NCBI GenBank assembly: GCA_009914755.4
Contig: CP086569.2
Span: 17,376,001 to 17,440,000 of the forward strand
DNA: 64,000 bases
Source: the human T2T-CHM13v2.0 reference genome, Homo sapiens
Direction: 5' to 3'
Shown: one piece after another, positions 57,005-61,090 of the stretch
Position numbering within the stretch: position 1 is the first letter of the stretch
Layout: each line of letters begins with the position of its first letter
Notes under the pieces: model-generated
The model's database searches: none
Told to the model about the DNA's origin: nothing
The model's input: only the letters and a program-made list of their open reading frames with translations
Program-made: the position numbers and the translations under genes

Positions 57005-57335
57005 GGTTGGGTGTGATGGTTGATGCCTGTAGTCCTAGCACTTTGGGTGACCAAAGCAGGAGGATCCCTCGAGCCCATAGTTCAAAAACAGCCTGGGCCA
57101 TATGGCAAAGCCCCATCTCTAGAAAAAATGCAAAAACTAGCCAGGTGTCTGGGTGCATACCTATAGACCCAGGTATGCACCAACATACCTGGGACTGCAG
57201 GTTTGTTGTAGTCTGAGGTGAGGCTGAGGTGAAGGGATGGCTTCAAACTGGGAGGTTGAGGCTGCAGTGAGCCAAGATCACACCACTGAACTCCAGTTTA
57301 GGCTATATAGCAAGAGCCTGTCTCCAAAAAGAAAA
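57005..57335 (+). mobile_element. Alu SINE, old (AluJ-like), full length
   Basis: gttgggtgtgatggttgatgcctgtagtcctagcactttgggtgaccaaagcaggaggatccctcgagcccatagttcaaaaacagcctgggccatatggcaaagccccatctctagaaaaaatgcaaaaactagccaggtgtctgggtgcatacctatagacccag...gcagtgagccaagatcacaccactgaactccagtttaggctatatagcaagagcctgtctccaaaaagaaaag. Confidence 0.85.
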
Positions 57336-57681
57336 GATATATTGATTACAGATATAGATAAAGTTAGCTATTTATAGGCATAGATATAGATGTATAAGAG
57401 GAAACTTAAAGGGGGATTGGCTCATGCAGTTATGGAGGATGAGAAGTCCCACCACAAGCTATGTCAAGTCAGAGAACCAGGGAGCCCAGGAGCATGGCTC
57501 AATTCATTTCCGAATATCTCATAACTAGGGAAGCTGAAGGTGTAACTCTCATTCCGAGGCTAAAGGCCTGAGGACCTGTGAGGTAACTGGTATAGTCCTG
57601 GAGTTCAAAAGCGAGAGAACCTGGAATTCTGTTGTCTAAGGGAAGGAGAAGTGTATCCCACCTCCAGCTTTAGGAGGAAGA

Positions 57682-57736
<55 letters not shown>

Positions 57737-57960
57737 TGTCTGTCTGTATTTTTTTCGGCCTTTTTTGTTTTTCTAGCTGGGCCCTTAGCCAATTGAGTGA
57801 TATTTCCACACACAGAAAGTAGATCTTCTTTACTCAATCTCCTGATTTAAAAGGCAGTCTTTTCTGGAAACTCTCTCACAGGTACACCCAGAAATAATGC
57901 TTGACCAGGTATCTGGGTAACCCTCAATCCAGTCAAGTTGACACTTAAAATTAATTAACT
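57336..57960 (+). mobile_element. ERVL-MaLR LTR (MLT1-like). It begins with a GATA/ATAG-type microsatellite-like leader and carries an expanded (TG)31(TCTG)3 microsatellite at 57673-57749.
   Basis: atatattgattacagatatagataaagttagctatttataggcatagatatagatgtataagaggaaacttaaagggggattggctcatgcagttatggaggatgagaagtcccaccacaagctatgtcaagtcagagaaccagggagcc...ggtgtaactctcattccgaggctaaaggcctgaggacctgtgaggtaactggtatagtcctggagttcaaaagcgagagaacctggaattctgttgtctaagggaaggagaag...gatcttctttactcaatctcctgatttaaaaggcagtcttttctggaaactctctcacaggtacacccagaaataatgcttgaccaggtatctgggtaaccctcaatccagtcaagttgacacttaaaattaattaactaccacc, which matches the architecture of the MLT1-type LTR consensus. Confidence 0.7.
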
Positions 57961-60430
57961 ACCACCATTCAGTACATAAACTTAGTCTGATGCATTAACA
58001 AATAAAATCAATGTTTTTTTTTTTCTAGGAAGGTTGTTTGAAACTATCAGGTATAATAGATCATACTACTAACCTAAAGCTACCAAAGATCAATATTGAT
58101 TCTTGATTAGAAGAAATTTAATGAAGTGATTTTTTATAGTGGTAATTAGTGCACAATGTTTTGCTGTAAGTTTTCTGAAACACTGTTCAGTTGTACTTAC
58201 TTTTATCCAAGATGAAAGATAGTCCTTAATTGTCTTTTAGACTGATTTAGTACTTAATATTTTATATCTTATTTTCAAACTATGGTAATAAAAATATTCT
58301 TATATACATGAAAATAAACAAATCAATGGAAATATCCTAATTTTCATCCCTTATCATTGTACTGAATCCTTAGTTTATTGGGAAGAATAATTTATAAAAA
58401 CCCTAAACCCCTTAGTGAGTAGTAGAAGATAATGTAACAAAATGAAAACTATTTGTAGGTTATTACTTTATGTCTAAATATTTCATGAATAAACATTCAT
58501 GAATGTAAAATAATCACTAAAAAACCAGCAATATATTTCTAAAGATAACCTACCAAACATGATAAACTCCAAATCATCTTTCATTTTTTCCTTTCTACCC
58601 ACAGAAATATGAATATCTGTAAAGTTTTGAGGTGAATATTTCATTTCCCAATTAACTAGTGTCTTGTTTTGATATTGAAGAATGAGCTCTTTTTCTACTT
58701 CACTTGAATTGACAAGTTCATGGATGGGAAGGTGTCACCTGCAACCTCCTTGCAACAGCACATGTGCTTAAGGAAGTTTGTCTTTGAAGAGATGGTCCTT
58801 CAACACTAGGCTGCAACTGACCTACCTTTTGCAATAGGAAGTGGCTGCCCTGTGGCCCCATGTGTCTTCTCTGGGCATCATGCCCATAGTGTGTTACCAG
58901 AGGAGGCCTAAATCCTTTTGGTCTCCCCTATATATCAGGGAATAGTATGTGTTATTTGCCTGCAATGTTCTCCCTCCAGGTTTTCCCAGAGCGGGTTCCT
59001 TCTCTTTCTTCAATTCTGAGTCAACATCTCCAGTCCAATGGCTCTATAAGGAGTAATTTTTCCTCTCAAATTTCTCATCATGATTATGGATTTATTTGCT
59101 TCTTTAATGTATCTCTCCTCCCAGTAGGCTGTTGGCCAAAAAGATTGGGAATTCATAACTCTCTCACTAGCGTTTTGAATAGTAAAGGGAAATTGACAGT
59201 GATGAAGAATATCTGTTGAATGAATTCACAAAAGAAATTCAGTGTTAATTAATACAGCCAGATAGAGGTTAAAAATGAAATCAATCACTAAAGGACAGAA
59301 TGCAGATAGGCATTCTGACAATTGCCTAACAATGTGTCTTCAGACAATTTGATTGCTGTGCAAATATCATAGACTATGCTTATACAAACCTGAATAGCAT
59401 AGCTGATCACATATTTAGGCTATATGTTATGGTGTATTTTCTACCTGGTTACTCACTTGTACAGCCTGATACTCCTCTGAATACTGTAGACAATTGCAGC
59501 TCAGTGATAAGTATTTGTATACCTAAAAAAAAAATGAACACAGAAAAAGTAATGTGTTGCTCTATGATGCTGCAATGACTGCATGTCACTAGACTAAAGG
59601 AATTTTTCAGCTTTGTTACAATCCCCTGGGCCCACATCATTTATGTGCTCTATTATCAAAATATTGTTATGTGGTACATGACTGTAATTTAAATATGTAT
59701 GCTGCTGATAGAAACTCTGCCTAAATCAAAAGTGTACCTACATTTAAACTATGACTACATTAGATACATACCAACAAACAGACATGCACTGGTAAAATAG
59801 TGATGATAAGATGGTTTTTCTATTGTGATTTTTATATTATCATGTTATTCTTTTTAGCATAATTTAGCAAGTTTGTTATTTCTATAATGTTTATATCTTT
59901 AGTTAAAATATATCTCATTCTAAGTTTTTATTTAAAAGAATGAACATCTTTTATTTTCTGGTTGTTAATGACCTTTGACCCATGGATAAGACCTGAAAGT
60001 CCCTTATCTACTCTATATTATTCTACTGCATTTATCTCCCCTGACATTTAAATTACATAATATTTTTTAATTGTTTCACAGCCTGTTGGTCTTATGTAGG
60101 GACGATTCTGCTTGAACAGCAGTAATCTGTTTTATTTCATCATGGTGAAACACAACAGATAAAATAAGCTTCAGCGAGTGCTTGTCAAGAAATATAAAAG
60201 GTACTAAAAAATTGTGAACCACATCAGCTTATCTAGGTGGTAATGCAATGGCAGCTTATAGAAGGTTTCTAACATCCCCATCATTCCACATCTGGCACAT
60301 GTGTATTCACAAAGGACTAAGCTAAAGTCCACCTGAAAAGACCACCTCAATTTAGGTGAATGAAATCAGAAATATTTACCAAATCAACTGTAAATGCCAA
60401 ATATTTACCAATCATATACCATATGTAAAT

Positions 60431-60460
60431 AAAAGATGAGGGTAAGGCACCTCATCTTTT
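60431..60460. other. Perfect palindrome with an 11-bp stem and 8-nt loop: aaaagatgagg-gtaaggca-cctcatctttt
   Basis: Direct reading; it lies 20 bp upstream of the inverted LTR fragment at the rearrangement junction. Confidence 0.9.
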
Positions 60461-60480
60461 ATGTCTACTCTCTCTCTCAG

Positions 60481-60508
60481 TGTGTGGAAATATCACCCAA
60501 TTGGCTGG
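60481..60508 (-). mobile_element. Inverted 28-bp fragment of the MLT1-like LTR. Its reverse complement, ccagccaattgggtgatatttccacaca, matches 57786-57810 of the upstream LTR copy at 24/25 positions.
   Basis: tgtgtggaaatatcacccaattggctgg compared with agccaattgagtgatatttccacacac at 57786-57812. Confidence 0.7.
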
Positions 60509-60642
60509 AGTCCCAGCTACTGGGGAGGCTGAAGTGAAAGAATGGCTTGGTCCTGGAATGTCAAGGATGCAGTGAGCCAAGATCACACCACTGAACTCCA
60601 GTTTCTGTGACATAGCAAGAACCTGTCTCCAAAAAAAAAAAA
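60509..60642 (+). mobile_element. Alu right-arm fragment, paralogous to the 3' end of the Alu at 57005-57335
   Basis: gtcccagctactggggaggctgaagtgaaagaatggcttggtcctggaatgtcaaggatgcagtgagccaagatcacaccactgaactccagtttctgtgacatagcaagaacctgtctccaaaaaaaaaaaaa. It shares the derived state ccactgAactccagTTT with the upstream copy. Confidence 0.8.
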
Positions 60643-61090
60643 AGATATATTGATTACAGATATAGATAAAGATAGCTATTGAGAGGCATAGATATAGATG
60701 TATGAGAGGCAACTTATAAGGGGATTTGCTCATGCAATTATGGAGGATGAGAACTCCCACCAAAAACGATGTCCAAGTTAGAGAACTCCAGAACCCAGTA
60801 GCATGGCTCAGATCAATTTTGAAAATCTTGGAACCAGGGAAGCTGATGGTATAATTCTCATTCTGAGGACAAAGGCTAGAGGACCTGTGGAGCACCCTCA
60901 TCTTTTTTGTCCATATGGTATGAGTGATTGCCCCAACGGTAAGATCAGCCCACTGAAGCCAACTATTCATAATTTTATCTCATCAAGGACATACAGTTGT
61001 TTGTCCACCCCATTGCCCTCAACTGGACTCCCATTTGTCTGGAATATATTATTCCTAAATACCCAACAATTAATTGAGTAACATGCAAAA
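60643..61090 (+). mobile_element. MLT1-like MaLR LTR, second and more diverged copy (about 85-88% identical to 57336-57640 over the first 260 bp)
   Basis: gatatattgattacagatatagataaagatagctattgagaggcatagatatagatgtatgagaggcaacttataaggggatttgctcatgcaattatggaggatgagaactcccaccaaaaacgatgtccaagttagagaactccagaacccag...ggtataattctcattctgaggacaaaggctagaggacctgtggagc... Confidence 0.65.

What the first reader, a model, noticed from the sequence alone, without database searches (positions are those of the whole stretch)
57230..61090. Paralogous Alu/MLT1-like-LTR junctions 3.3 kb apart, with an inverted LTR fragment and a perfect palindrome at the second copy
Two blocks share the same junction, Alu 3' end then A-run then gatatattgattacagatatagataaag then LTR, at 57290-57640 and 60560-60900. 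They also share derived Alu substitutions (ccactgAactccagTTT), so they are paralogues and not independent insertions. Identity is only about 85-88%, which points to an old duplication. The second copy has only the 3' half of the Alu. It is preceded by a 28-bp piece of the same LTR in inverted orientation (60481-60508, 24/25 match to 57786-57810). Twenty bp further upstream is a perfect 11-bp-stem hairpin (60431-60460). This looks like an ancient local duplication with an inversion breakpoint. Alternatively the two LTRs may be the 5' and 3' LTRs of a MaLR element that had an Alu at a recombination-prone site. The roughly 2.5 kb between the copies (57960-60470) is unique AT-rich sequence with no recognisable ERV internal region.
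Basis: seen in the sequence. Interest (0 to 1): 0.55.

Follow-up and report, generated by a model that had tools for sequence, protein, structure and literature searches.

The report
Copied DNA patch inside a hairpin site
About 430 bases of an Alu-plus-LTR junction were copied long ago, one small piece backwards, into a hairpin-forming site 3.3 kb downstream; it is a clear fossil of a known kind of DNA copying error and has no sign of function.

Summary
57217-57580 and 60522-60889 align at 85.1% across the same Alu tail/LTR junction. An inverted 46-50 nt piece of the same LTR (57774-57823) sits just left of the second copy, and the hairpin is there, with a 13-bp stem rather than 11.

New here: the second copy is a bounded composite insert (about 60466-60891). 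A 19/20 target-site duplication flanks it (60447-65 / 60892-911). It lies inside a pre-existing imperfect palindrome (arms 60409-43 / 60894-930). This is the only non-low-complexity inverted repeat of its class in the 64 kb.

The reconstructed empty site folds at -23.4 kcal/mol (z = -10). The duplicated target bases run from the apical loop to an internal bubble of that hairpin.

Copy 1 is the source: it is a full Alu with its own 9-bp duplication inside a complete LTR.

Best reading: one DNA-templated, microhomology-primed template-switching event (FoSTeS/MMBIR type) at a hairpin. It happened at about half the Alu's age.

The 5'/3' LTR-pair reading is rejected, and so is independent insertion. 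L1 twin priming fits the topology, but there is no poly(A) and no TTTT/A nick site, and the source lies only 3.3 kb away.

I could reach no orthologous sequence. This is an ordinary mutational scar of modest interest.

The parts
56880..57004 (+). 5' GATA/TATA-rich part of the host MLT1-like (MaLR) LTR, upstream of the Alu. The start coordinate is approximate.
   Evidence: Read; tandem-repeat rows 56913-57005. The family name rests on my memory of the MaLR consensus and was not tested, because no Dfam or RepeatMasker was available.
56996..57004 (+). 5' target-site duplication of the source Alu (AAAGATATA).
   Evidence: Read. The identical 9-mer lies at 57333-57341, directly after the A-tail.
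57005..57335 (+). Full-length old Alu (AluJ-like) with its A-tail. It is the source copy and carries about 38 extra bases near 57176-57213.
57217..57580 (+). Source segment A: Alu right arm, A-tail, Alu 3' duplication and 245 nt of LTR. It was copied in direct orientation. Its true left end is probably near 57205, or before the 38 extra bases.
57581..57773 (+). Part of the LTR skipped by the copying event (193 nt). It includes a (GT)n microsatellite and T-runs.
   Evidence: No counterpart at the second site. (GT)16 at 57684-57747.
57774..57823 (+). Source segment B: the LTR piece that appears inverted at the second site.
   Evidence: I1; 42/50; 0 of 1000 shuffles reach the observed score.
57824..57965 (+). 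Remaining 3' part of the host LTR, ending ...AGTCAAGTTGACACTTAAAATTAATTAACTACCA. It was not copied.
   Evidence: Read. The match to the MaLR 3' end is from memory and untested.
60409..60443 (.). Left arm of the pre-existing target palindrome.
   Evidence: I2; L 60409-60454 against R 60930-60886. Score 45 against a maximum of 26 in 5000 shuffles.
60429..60462 (.). The 13-bp stem is the left arm paired with the left duplicated copy of the inner right arm.
   Evidence: second fold: -12.7 kcal/mol, z = -5.5.
60447..60465 (+). Left copy of the target-site duplication, GCACCTCATCTTTTATGTC.
   Evidence: 19/20 with one gap, against 60892-60911. (score 28 against a maximum of 21 in 5000 shuffles).
60466..60519 (-). 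Inverted copy of source segment B. It includes a short (TC)n expansion and the junction bases at 60466-60473.
60505..60889 (+). Direct copy of source segment A: Alu positions about 158-289 at 60505-60640, then the Alu 3' duplication and LTR at 60641-60889. Bases 60505-60519 overlap the inverted piece because both sources contain CCCAGCTA.
60892..60911 (+). Right copy of the target-site duplication, GCACCCTCATCTTTTTTGTC.
60894..60930 (.). Right arm of the target palindrome.

Best explanation
One old copy-and-paste mutation. The source is a MaLR-type LTR that had already received an Alu (57005-57335, with its own 9-bp duplication). Two pieces of this source were copied and the source was left intact. 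The first piece is about 50 nt (57774-57823), copied in reverse. The second is about 375 nt (about 57205-57580), copied forwards. The 193 nt between them were skipped.

The composite of about 430 nt was placed 3.3 kb downstream, inside an imperfect palindrome of about 75 bp. Nineteen bases of that palindrome were duplicated in the process.

Most likely mechanism (inferred): DNA-templated, microhomology-primed template switching of the FoSTeS/MMBIR type, triggered by the hairpin. A 3' end that had just synthesised the loop and inner right arm of the palindrome came free. It primed first on one strand of the nearby LTR and then on the other strand in the Alu. It then resumed at the target 19 nt behind its departure point, which made the duplication. 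An equivalent variant is that the extruded hairpin was nicked at its apical loop on one strand and at its internal bubble on the other. The two 3' ends would then each have copied the same single donor strand before being joined.

Shown: the anatomy, the direction (copy 1 is the source), the single-insert structure, the duplication, the prior existence of the palindrome, and the relative age. Inferred: the enzymology and the role of replication. The element has no indicated function.
For: Composite insert from one donor: there are only two matches between the blocks, one direct and one inverted, and they abut each other at the target. Both are about 85% identical to the source (308/362 and 42/50), which fits one event.

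Direction: copy 1 is a complete Alu (consensus positions 5-288) with AAAGATATA on both sides, set in an LTR that continues to its 3' end. Copy 2 starts at Alu position about 158 and ends abruptly.

Target: there is a 19/20 direct duplication at the two edges of the insert, and arms of about 35 nt outside it. Shuffles never reach either score. With the insert removed, the site folds into a hairpin of about 35 bp at -23.4 kcal/mol, z = -10.1. The duplication occupies nt 40-59 of that fold. It begins in the apical loop (nt 37-41) and ends on the last base of the internal bubble (nt 57-59).

This palindrome is the only inverted repeat of at least 25 nt, with arms within 600 nt of each other, in the 64 kb that is not TA/CA microsatellite.

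The palindrome predates the insert. The two duplicated copies share GCAC and TGTC against TTAC and TTTA in the complement of the left arm (read directly).

Junctions, read directly: about 2 nt (TC) at target to B; CT, with CCCAGCTA present in both donors, at B to A; 1-3 nt at A to target. There is no poly(A) at either end.

These features match what the MMBIR paper lists: discontinuous duplications mixed with deletions and inverted duplications, and 2-5 bp microhomology (PMC2621351).

Relative age: 15 shared changes in the Alu part against 16 and 11 private ones. K2P distance between the copies is 0.167.
Against: No outgroup or empty-site sequence could be obtained, so the reconstructed target is an inference from the duplication.

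The copies differ by 15%, so junction microhomologies cannot be fixed to the base. They are equally compatible with end joining.

A clean duplication of 19-20 bp is also the hallmark of staggered-nick insertion by L1, and the two-piece inverted layout formally fits twin priming.

Nothing in the sequence proves that replication was involved. The match between the duplication's edges and unpaired hairpin positions would arise by chance about 1 time in 20, by my rough estimate.
Confidence: 0.6

Rival explanations
1. Staggered double-strand break at the extruded palindrome, repaired by end joining. Two loose DNA fragments from the neighbouring LTR/Alu region would have been captured in arbitrary orientation, and the 19-nt overhangs filled in to give the duplication.
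For: The duplication's edges fall in the two unpaired parts of the predicted hairpin, where structure-specific nicking would be expected. Junction overlaps are only about 1-3 nt, and there may be 2 filler bases (GA, 60890-60891).
Against: The donor is intact, so the fragments would have to come from a sister chromatid or be newly synthesised. In the second case this explanation merges with the best one. Both pieces come from within 625 bp of each other and only 2.6-3.3 kb from the break, which copying explains more simply than capture of free fragments.
Confidence: 0.15
2. RNA-mediated insertion by L1 ORF2p with twin priming. A plus-sense transcript crossing the Alu and LTR would have been reverse transcribed from both nicked target strands. 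In minus orientation this gives duplication, inverted upstream piece, direct downstream piece, duplication.
For: The topology fits. Read on the minus strand, the insert is [inverted 57205-57580][direct 57774-57823] with a 193-nt internal deletion, bounded by a 19-bp duplication. That is inside the 7-20 bp range, and it matches the 'two inverted fragments with an internal deletion' described for twin priming (PMC2837659). A TTTT/A motif lies inside the duplication.
Against: There is no poly(A) or A-rich run at the 3' end of the putative RNA or at the insert end, and no AATAAA upstream. The inferred first-strand nick is ATGTC^C, 5 nt beyond the TTTT/A. Class 1 templated insertions are defined by a duplication plus poly(A) plus the TTTT/A site (PMC5110952), and two of these three features are missing. 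Retrocopies land genome-wide, so a landing within 3.3 kb of the source would be a coincidence of about 1 in 10^5-10^6 (my estimate).
Confidence: 0.08
3. Two or more steps. A simple dispersed duplication of the whole 57205-57829 block would have come first, followed by a deletion of the middle and an inversion or transposition of the 3' piece to the other side.
For: It cannot be excluded from a single genome. The region shows other small rearrangements, for example about 38 extra bases in Alu copy 1.
Against: It needs at least three independent events whose breakpoints happen to produce a compact insert with one clean duplication. The two pieces are equally diverged from the source.
Confidence: 0.05
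4. The two blocks are the 5' and 3' LTRs of one MaLR provirus, or two independent LTR copies, made alike by recombination or gene conversion. Alternatively they are two independent insertions of a composite Alu-LTR repeat family.
For: They have the same orientation and lie 3.3 kb apart. The interval has no match elsewhere in the window.
Against: Copy 2 holds only about 245 nt of the LTR and starts inside an Alu. The Alu's own duplication flanks it only in copy 1. Copy 2 has its own 19-bp duplication in unrelated palindromic sequence. The Alu and LTR parts are equally diverged, 81% and 81-90%, whereas independent MaLR copies should be far more diverged than a primate-specific Alu. No ORF in the interval has a Pfam hit. 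Gene conversion cannot start in the Alu part, where a recipient LTR would have no homology. The junction 28-mer occurs only at these two places in the window.
Confidence: 0.02

Closest known systems
FoSTeS/MMBIR complex rearrangements (Lee, Carvalho and Lupski 2007, from memory; Hastings, Ira and Lupski 2009, PMC2621351)
   Same: A discontinuous duplication with a skipped segment and an inverted segment. Short microhomology at the junctions. The donor is retained. The templates are close together. A secondary-structure-forming repeat lies at a breakpoint.
   Different: The scale is very small (430 bp copied over 3.3 kb, against the kb-Mb copy-number variants the models were built for). It is an old, fixed, germline event rather than a disease allele. 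It forms a neat insertion with a 19-bp target duplication.
Short-range template switch mutations (four-point model; Loytynoja and Goldman 2017, PMC5453318)
   Same: A nascent strand switches to the opposite strand and back, producing inverted copies and hairpins. This probably explains the about 38 extra bases in Alu copy 1 and perhaps the origin of the target palindrome.
   Different: Those events copy tens of bases from within tens to hundreds of bases and replace sequence in place. Here two templates 2.6-3.3 kb away were used and 430 nt were added.
L1 twin priming and class 1 templated sequence insertions (PMC2837659; PMC5110952)
   Same: A target-site duplication in the 7-20 bp range bounds two mutually inverted fragments of one template, with an internal deletion.
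   Different: No poly(A), no polyadenylation signal, and the nick site is not TTTT/A. The source is adjacent rather than at a distant locus.
Class 2 templated sequence insertions (break 'patches'; PMC5110952)
   Same: A non-polyadenylated patch copied from elsewhere, with end-joining-like junctions.
   Different: Class 2 events are defined as lacking target-site duplications and derive from distant, often transcribed, regions. This one has a 19-bp duplication and a local donor.
Palindrome-mediated instability (cruciform or hairpin-induced breaks, e.g. palindromic AT-rich repeats; from memory)
   Same: The event sits exactly within a hairpin-forming inverted repeat, and its breakpoints lie at the unpaired positions of the hairpin.
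   Different: The arms are short (about 35 nt, imperfect), and the outcome is a templated insertion rather than a translocation or deletion.

Membership tests
FoSTeS/MMBIR-type template-switch rearrangement | Complex product: discontinuous duplicated segments, with deletions and inverted segments between them | tested here: met
   Direct 57217-57580 and inverted 57774-57823 are copied, and 57581-57773 is skipped. The feature list is from PMC2621351.
FoSTeS/MMBIR-type template-switch rearrangement | Microhomology of about 2-5 bp at each junction | tested here: inconclusive
   Overlaps of about 2 nt (TC), 2 nt (CT, with CCCAGCTA nearby in both donors) and 1-3 nt were read. The 15% divergence since the event blurs the exact breakpoints.
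FoSTeS/MMBIR-type template-switch rearrangement | Donor retained (copying, not excision) and templates physically close | tested here: met
   The source Alu/LTR is intact and continuous. The donors lie 2.6-3.3 kb from the target.
FoSTeS/MMBIR-type template-switch rearrangement | Arises at a stalled or broken replication fork | not testable with these tools
   There is only indirect support: the target is a strong hairpin (-23.4 kcal/mol, z = -10.1).
L1 ORF2p-mediated insertion (TPRT, twin priming, class 1 templated insertion) | Target-site duplication of about 7-20 bp | tested here: met
   19/20 duplication, 60447-60465 against 60892-60911.
L1 ORF2p-mediated insertion (TPRT, twin priming, class 1 templated insertion) | Poly(A) tract at the 3' end of the insert, with an upstream polyadenylation signal | tested here: not met
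   Neither end of the insert has an A or T run. The only A-run is the internal Alu tail at 60630-60642. There is no AATAAA before 57829.
L1 ORF2p-mediated insertion (TPRT, twin priming, class 1 templated insertion) | First-strand nick at a 5'-TTTT/A-3'-like site | tested here: not met
   The edge of the duplication gives ...TTTTATGTC^CATATG. The TTTT/A lies 5 nt inside the duplication. The criteria are from PMC5110952 and PMC2837659.
L1 ORF2p-mediated insertion (TPRT, twin priming, class 1 templated insertion) | Twin-priming topology: inverted upstream fragment followed by direct downstream fragment of one RNA, with an internal deletion | tested here: met
   Satisfied for a plus-sense RNA inserted in minus orientation (derived). 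This is a necessary feature, not a sufficient one.
5'/3' LTR pair of a MaLR (ERVL-MaLR) provirus | Two LTRs of matching extent with TG...CA ends, bounding an internal region, with one short duplication outside both | tested here: not met
   Copy 2 is an internal stretch of 245 nt of the LTR fused to half an Alu, with its own 19-bp duplication. No ORF in the interval has a Pfam hit.
Independent Alu retrotransposition (for the half-Alu at 60505-60640) | Its own flanking target-site duplications, and flanks unrelated to those of other copies | tested here: not met
   The 250 nt downstream of the A-tail are shared with copy 1, including copy 1's Alu duplication AAAGATATA. There are 19 shared derived positions, 9 of them rare in the other Alus.
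MLT1 (MaLR) LTR family, as the host repeat | Match to a Dfam/Repbase MLT1 consensus | not testable with these tools
   No repeat library was available. The resemblance (GGATTGGCTCA...TATGGAGG.TGAGAAGTCCCA..., and the 3' end ...AGTCAAGTTGACAC.TAAAATTAA...CA) is recalled from memory only.

The most novel reading that the evidence does not exclude
The target duplication may be a direct footprint of a hairpin intermediate. Either the nascent strand's own loop and inner right arm folded back and was synthesised a second time after the excursion, or a cruciform was nicked at its loop and its bubble. In both cases the two 3' ends, or one wandering end, copied a single-stranded donor in a 'twin-priming-like' geometry without L1. 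If this is general, insertions that have a target duplication but no poly(A), and are currently filed as odd retrocopies or unclassified templated insertions, would form a recognisable class seeded by hairpins. The edges of their duplications would be predictable from the fold of the empty site. A more speculative variant is that the single-stranded donor was a nascent local transcript copied by a repair polymerase with reverse-transcriptase activity.
Probability: 0.25. Interest if true: 0.45.

Novelty: new member of a known kind. Interest (0 to 1): 0.22.

Why it matters
There are three practical points. First, the half-Alu at 60505-60640 and the LTR fragment beside it are not independent transposon insertions. 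Repeat annotation, Alu counts and the use of SINE insertions as homoplasy-free phylogenetic markers would all misread them. Second, it is a clean, fully bounded fossil showing that kilobase-range template switching with an inverted segment happens in the primate germline at a scale of a few hundred bases. That scale lies between the well-studied short template switches of tens of bases and copy-number variants of kilobases to megabases. Third, the exact fit between the target duplication and the loop and bubble of a hairpin gives a testable rule for where such events start and end. No function, gene or regulatory consequence is indicated.

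Tried and rejected
Comparative dating could not be done:
- An exact-match scan of metagenome contigs with the shared junction 28-mer found nothing.
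- The 172-aa ORF that spans copy 2 (60452-60970, minus strand) is not on record in the assembly index.
- Its non-Alu part has no homologue in the protein collection.
- The other DNA collections hold phages, plasmids, E. coli, bacteria and archaea, so they cannot hold orthologues.

Other negative results:
- Rfam at gathering thresholds found nothing in the whole window.
- Pfam found nothing in the ORF across copy 2 or in any ORF of 45 aa or more in the 2.5-kb interval.

Considered and rejected:
- A 5'/3' LTR pair, gene conversion between two LTRs, an independent Alu insertion, and a composite mobile element. Reasons are given in the rivals and membership tests.
- The palindrome being created by the same event through fold-back copying. 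The two duplicated copies share GCAC and TGTC against the complement of the left arm, so the arms already differed when the duplication was made.
- A MITE whose terminal inverted repeats are the two arms and which captured filler DNA. There is no duplication outside the arms, this model does not explain the 19-bp duplication inside them, and there is no second copy in the window.

I first judged twin priming to be topologically impossible. On re-derivation it is possible for a plus-sense RNA inserted in minus orientation, so I kept it as a low-probability rival.

Heterogeneity of identity along the duplicate (81%, 90%, 81%) is not significant (p = 0.059). I therefore make no claim of a gene-conversion tract.

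I could not establish an absolute age or the species. This is more diverged than I recall for human, so I give only a relative age.

Full report
**1. What is in the sequence**

The window is primate-like DNA. It holds 19 Alu copies and L1 ORF1/ORF2-like reading frames at 36.6-46.2 kb. GC content is 30-43%.

The two blocks in the finding align with gaps over 57217-57580 and 60522-60889. There are 308 matches, 54 mismatches and 8 gap columns, which is 85.1% identity. The alignment runs without a break through four features: the right arm of an Alu, its A-tail, the 28-mer GATATATTGATTACAGATATAGATAAAG, and 245 nt of an LTR. The 28-mer is present exactly twice in the window, with none expected by chance. 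A self-comparison of 55.5-62.8 kb finds only one other match between the blocks. This is the inverted one, 57774-57819 against 60474-60519, 46 nt at 85%. With one gap it extends to 42/50 over 57774-57823. Its score is 58, against a maximum of 28 in 1000 shuffles. The hairpin at 60431-60460 is real and has a perfect stem of 13 bp.

**2. Which copy is the source**

Copy 1 is a complete old Alu. The 9-mer AAAGATATA lies directly before it (56996-57004) and directly after its A-tail (57333-57341). This is an ordinary Alu insertion into the GATA-rich 5' part of an LTR, and the LTR continues to about 57965.

Copy 2 begins at Alu position about 158. It carries the A-tail and the 3' AAAGATATA, but not the 5' half of the Alu or the other AAAGATATA. 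It stops abruptly at the equivalent of 57580. So copy 2 derives from copy 1's arrangement.

- In the Alu part the copies are 81.2% identical to each other, but at most 71.6% identical to any of 16 other Alus in the window.
- They share 19 differences from the consensus. Nine of these occur in at most 2 of the 16 other Alus. The other Alus carry 1-9 of the 19.
- A three-way count gives 15 shared derived changes, against 16 and 11 private ones. The duplication therefore happened at roughly half the age of the Alu.
- The Kimura distance between the copies is 0.167.

**3.

The second copy is a bounded insert. At its two edges the target sequence is duplicated: GCACCTCATCTTTTATGTC (60447-60465) and GCACCCTCATCTTTTTTGTC (60892-60911), a 19/20 match. 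The score is 28, against a maximum of 21 in 5000 shuffles.

Outside and overlapping these duplicated copies, the flanks are inverted repeats of each other: 60409-60443 against 60894-60930 (I2). The score is 45, against a maximum of 26 in shuffles. With the insert and one duplicated copy removed, the site is an imperfect palindrome of about 75 nt. It folds at -23.4 kcal/mol, with z = -10.1.

This is the only inverted repeat of its class in the 64 kb that is not TA/CA microsatellite. An insert landing exactly inside it is therefore unlikely to be coincidence.

The two duplicated copies agree with each other (GCAC..., ...TGTC) where they differ from the complement of the left arm (TTAC..., ...TTTA). 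So the palindrome existed, already imperfect, before the insertion.

In the predicted fold the duplication is nt 40-59. It starts in the apical loop (nt 37-41) and ends on the last base of the internal bubble (nt 57-59).

**4. Anatomy of the insert, left to right**

1. Left duplicated copy, followed by a (TC)-rich junction.
2. The reverse complement of 57774-57823.
3. A junction within GGCT|GGAGTCCCAGCTA. Both donors contain CCCAGCTA here, and only CT is unambiguous overlap.
4. The direct copy of about 57205-57580.
5. GA.
6. Right duplicated copy.

The 193 nt between the two donor pieces were skipped. This stretch includes (GT)16. Both pieces are about 85% identical to the donor, which fits a single event. 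Neither end of the insert has a poly(A).

**5. Mechanism**

The best-supported reading is a single DNA-templated copying event with microhomology-primed template switches, of the FoSTeS/MMBIR type. The defining description of MMBIR lists discontinuous duplications mixed with deletions and inverted duplications, 2-5 bp junction microhomology, and breakpoints near pre-existing repeats (PMC2621351). The first and third features are met here. The second is compatible but blurred by 15% divergence.

The hairpin offers a concrete route, which I infer rather than show. One possibility is that the 3' end that had just copied the loop and inner right arm folded back on the nascent left arm. Its last bases would then be left unpaired in the bubble. 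It wandered to the nearby LTR and Alu, and resumed at the first free template position in the loop, re-copying 19 nt. The other possibility is that the extruded hairpins were nicked at the loop on one strand and at the bubble on the other, and the two 3' ends each copied the same single donor strand. Both routes predict the observed edges of the duplication. I put 0.6 on this family of explanations. I am about 0.9 confident in the anatomy alone: one composite copy-paste insert from 3.3 kb upstream into a palindrome.

**6. Rivals**

*L1 twin priming.* I first dismissed this on topology, but it fits when re-derived. Read on the minus strand, the insert is an inverted upstream fragment followed by a direct downstream fragment of a plus-sense template, with an internal deletion and a duplication in the 7-20 bp range (PMC2837659). 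However, there is no poly(A) and no polyadenylation signal. The nick site is ATGTC^C, not TTTT/A. These are the features that define L1-mediated class 1 templated insertions (PMC5110952). A retrocopy landing 3.3 kb from its source would also be a very unlikely coincidence. I give it 0.08.

*Capture of fragments by end joining at a staggered break.* This cannot be separated cleanly from the copying model (0.15).

*A multi-step history.* Less parsimonious (0.05).

*The 5'/3' LTR pair, gene conversion, or independent insertion of a composite.* All are contradicted by the anatomy (0.02).

**7. Limits**

- I could reach no orthologous or empty-site sequence.
- There was no repeat library, so 'MLT1-like' and the Alu subfamily rest on memory.
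- I do not give an absolute age. All Alus here are 72-86.5% identical to consensus. The ratio of transitions to transversions between the paralogues is 28:26.
- No RNA family or protein domain is associated with the locus, and nothing suggests function.

**8. Verdict**

The locus is a clear, fully delimited fossil of a known mutational process, with one instructive detail: the target duplication maps onto the unpaired positions of the hairpin. It is a new member of a known kind, with interest of about 0.2.

Noticed in passing
window 54069-54162 and 56365-56433: A 70-nt block (54093-54162) matches part of another LTR-like repeat at 56365-56433 at 58/70 = 83%. Its flanks show no homology (left p = 0.2, right p = 0.95). 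Its left edge abuts a perfect 9-bp-stem hairpin, AATATCCAG-TCATTC-CTGGATATT (54069-54092). It may be a second small local templated copy next to a hairpin, of similar divergence, or just a conserved core of two old LTR copies. I saw no target duplication.
   Followed up: partly
window 57141-57213: Alu copy 1 carries about 38 extra bases relative to the Alu consensus. They form 22-nt inverted repeats with the adjacent Alu sequence (I5/I6; fold -19.4 kcal/mol, z = -4.1). Copy 2 has the uninterrupted consensus-like GTCCCAGCTACTGGGGAGG. The extra piece therefore looks like a later short template-switch mutation, right at the left breakpoint of the duplicated segment.
   Followed up: partly
window 60452-60970 (minus strand): The longest ORF in the whole window (172 aa) runs antisense through the entire second copy. 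It has no Pfam hit, its non-Alu part has no homologue, and it is not on record as a called gene. It is most likely chance, helped by the Alu antisense frame.
   Followed up: yes
There is no young copy. This is more diverged than I recall for the human genome, so the lineage or region may evolve fast, or the species may not be human.
   Followed up: no
window 36611-46198 (minus strand): ORFs with clear L1 ORF2 and ORF1-like sequence (for example 36611-36976, 41157-41648, 42074-42481, 45755-46198) mark a long degraded L1, interrupted by an Alu at about 45266-45557.
   Followed up: no
window 57217-57580 against 60522-60889: The differences between the paralogues are 28 transitions and 26 transversions, a ratio near 1 rather than the usual value of about 2 for mammalian neutral DNA. 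Several differences are clustered (57243-57262), which suggests multi-nucleotide events or local misalignment.
   Followed up: no
window 59290-59690: This stretch, ending ...GGTACATGACTGTA, resembles (from memory only) an internally deleted Tigger-type DNA transposon. If so, the 'unique' 2.5 kb between the copies is not free of old repeats. It has no second copy in the window.
   Followed up: no
window 53867-54049, 57684-57747, 62058-62089, 60125-60160: A complex TA/TAGA-rich microsatellite (183 nt), (GT)16 inside the source LTR, (AC)16, and a 36-nt quasi-palindrome 270 nt upstream of the target site.
   Followed up: no
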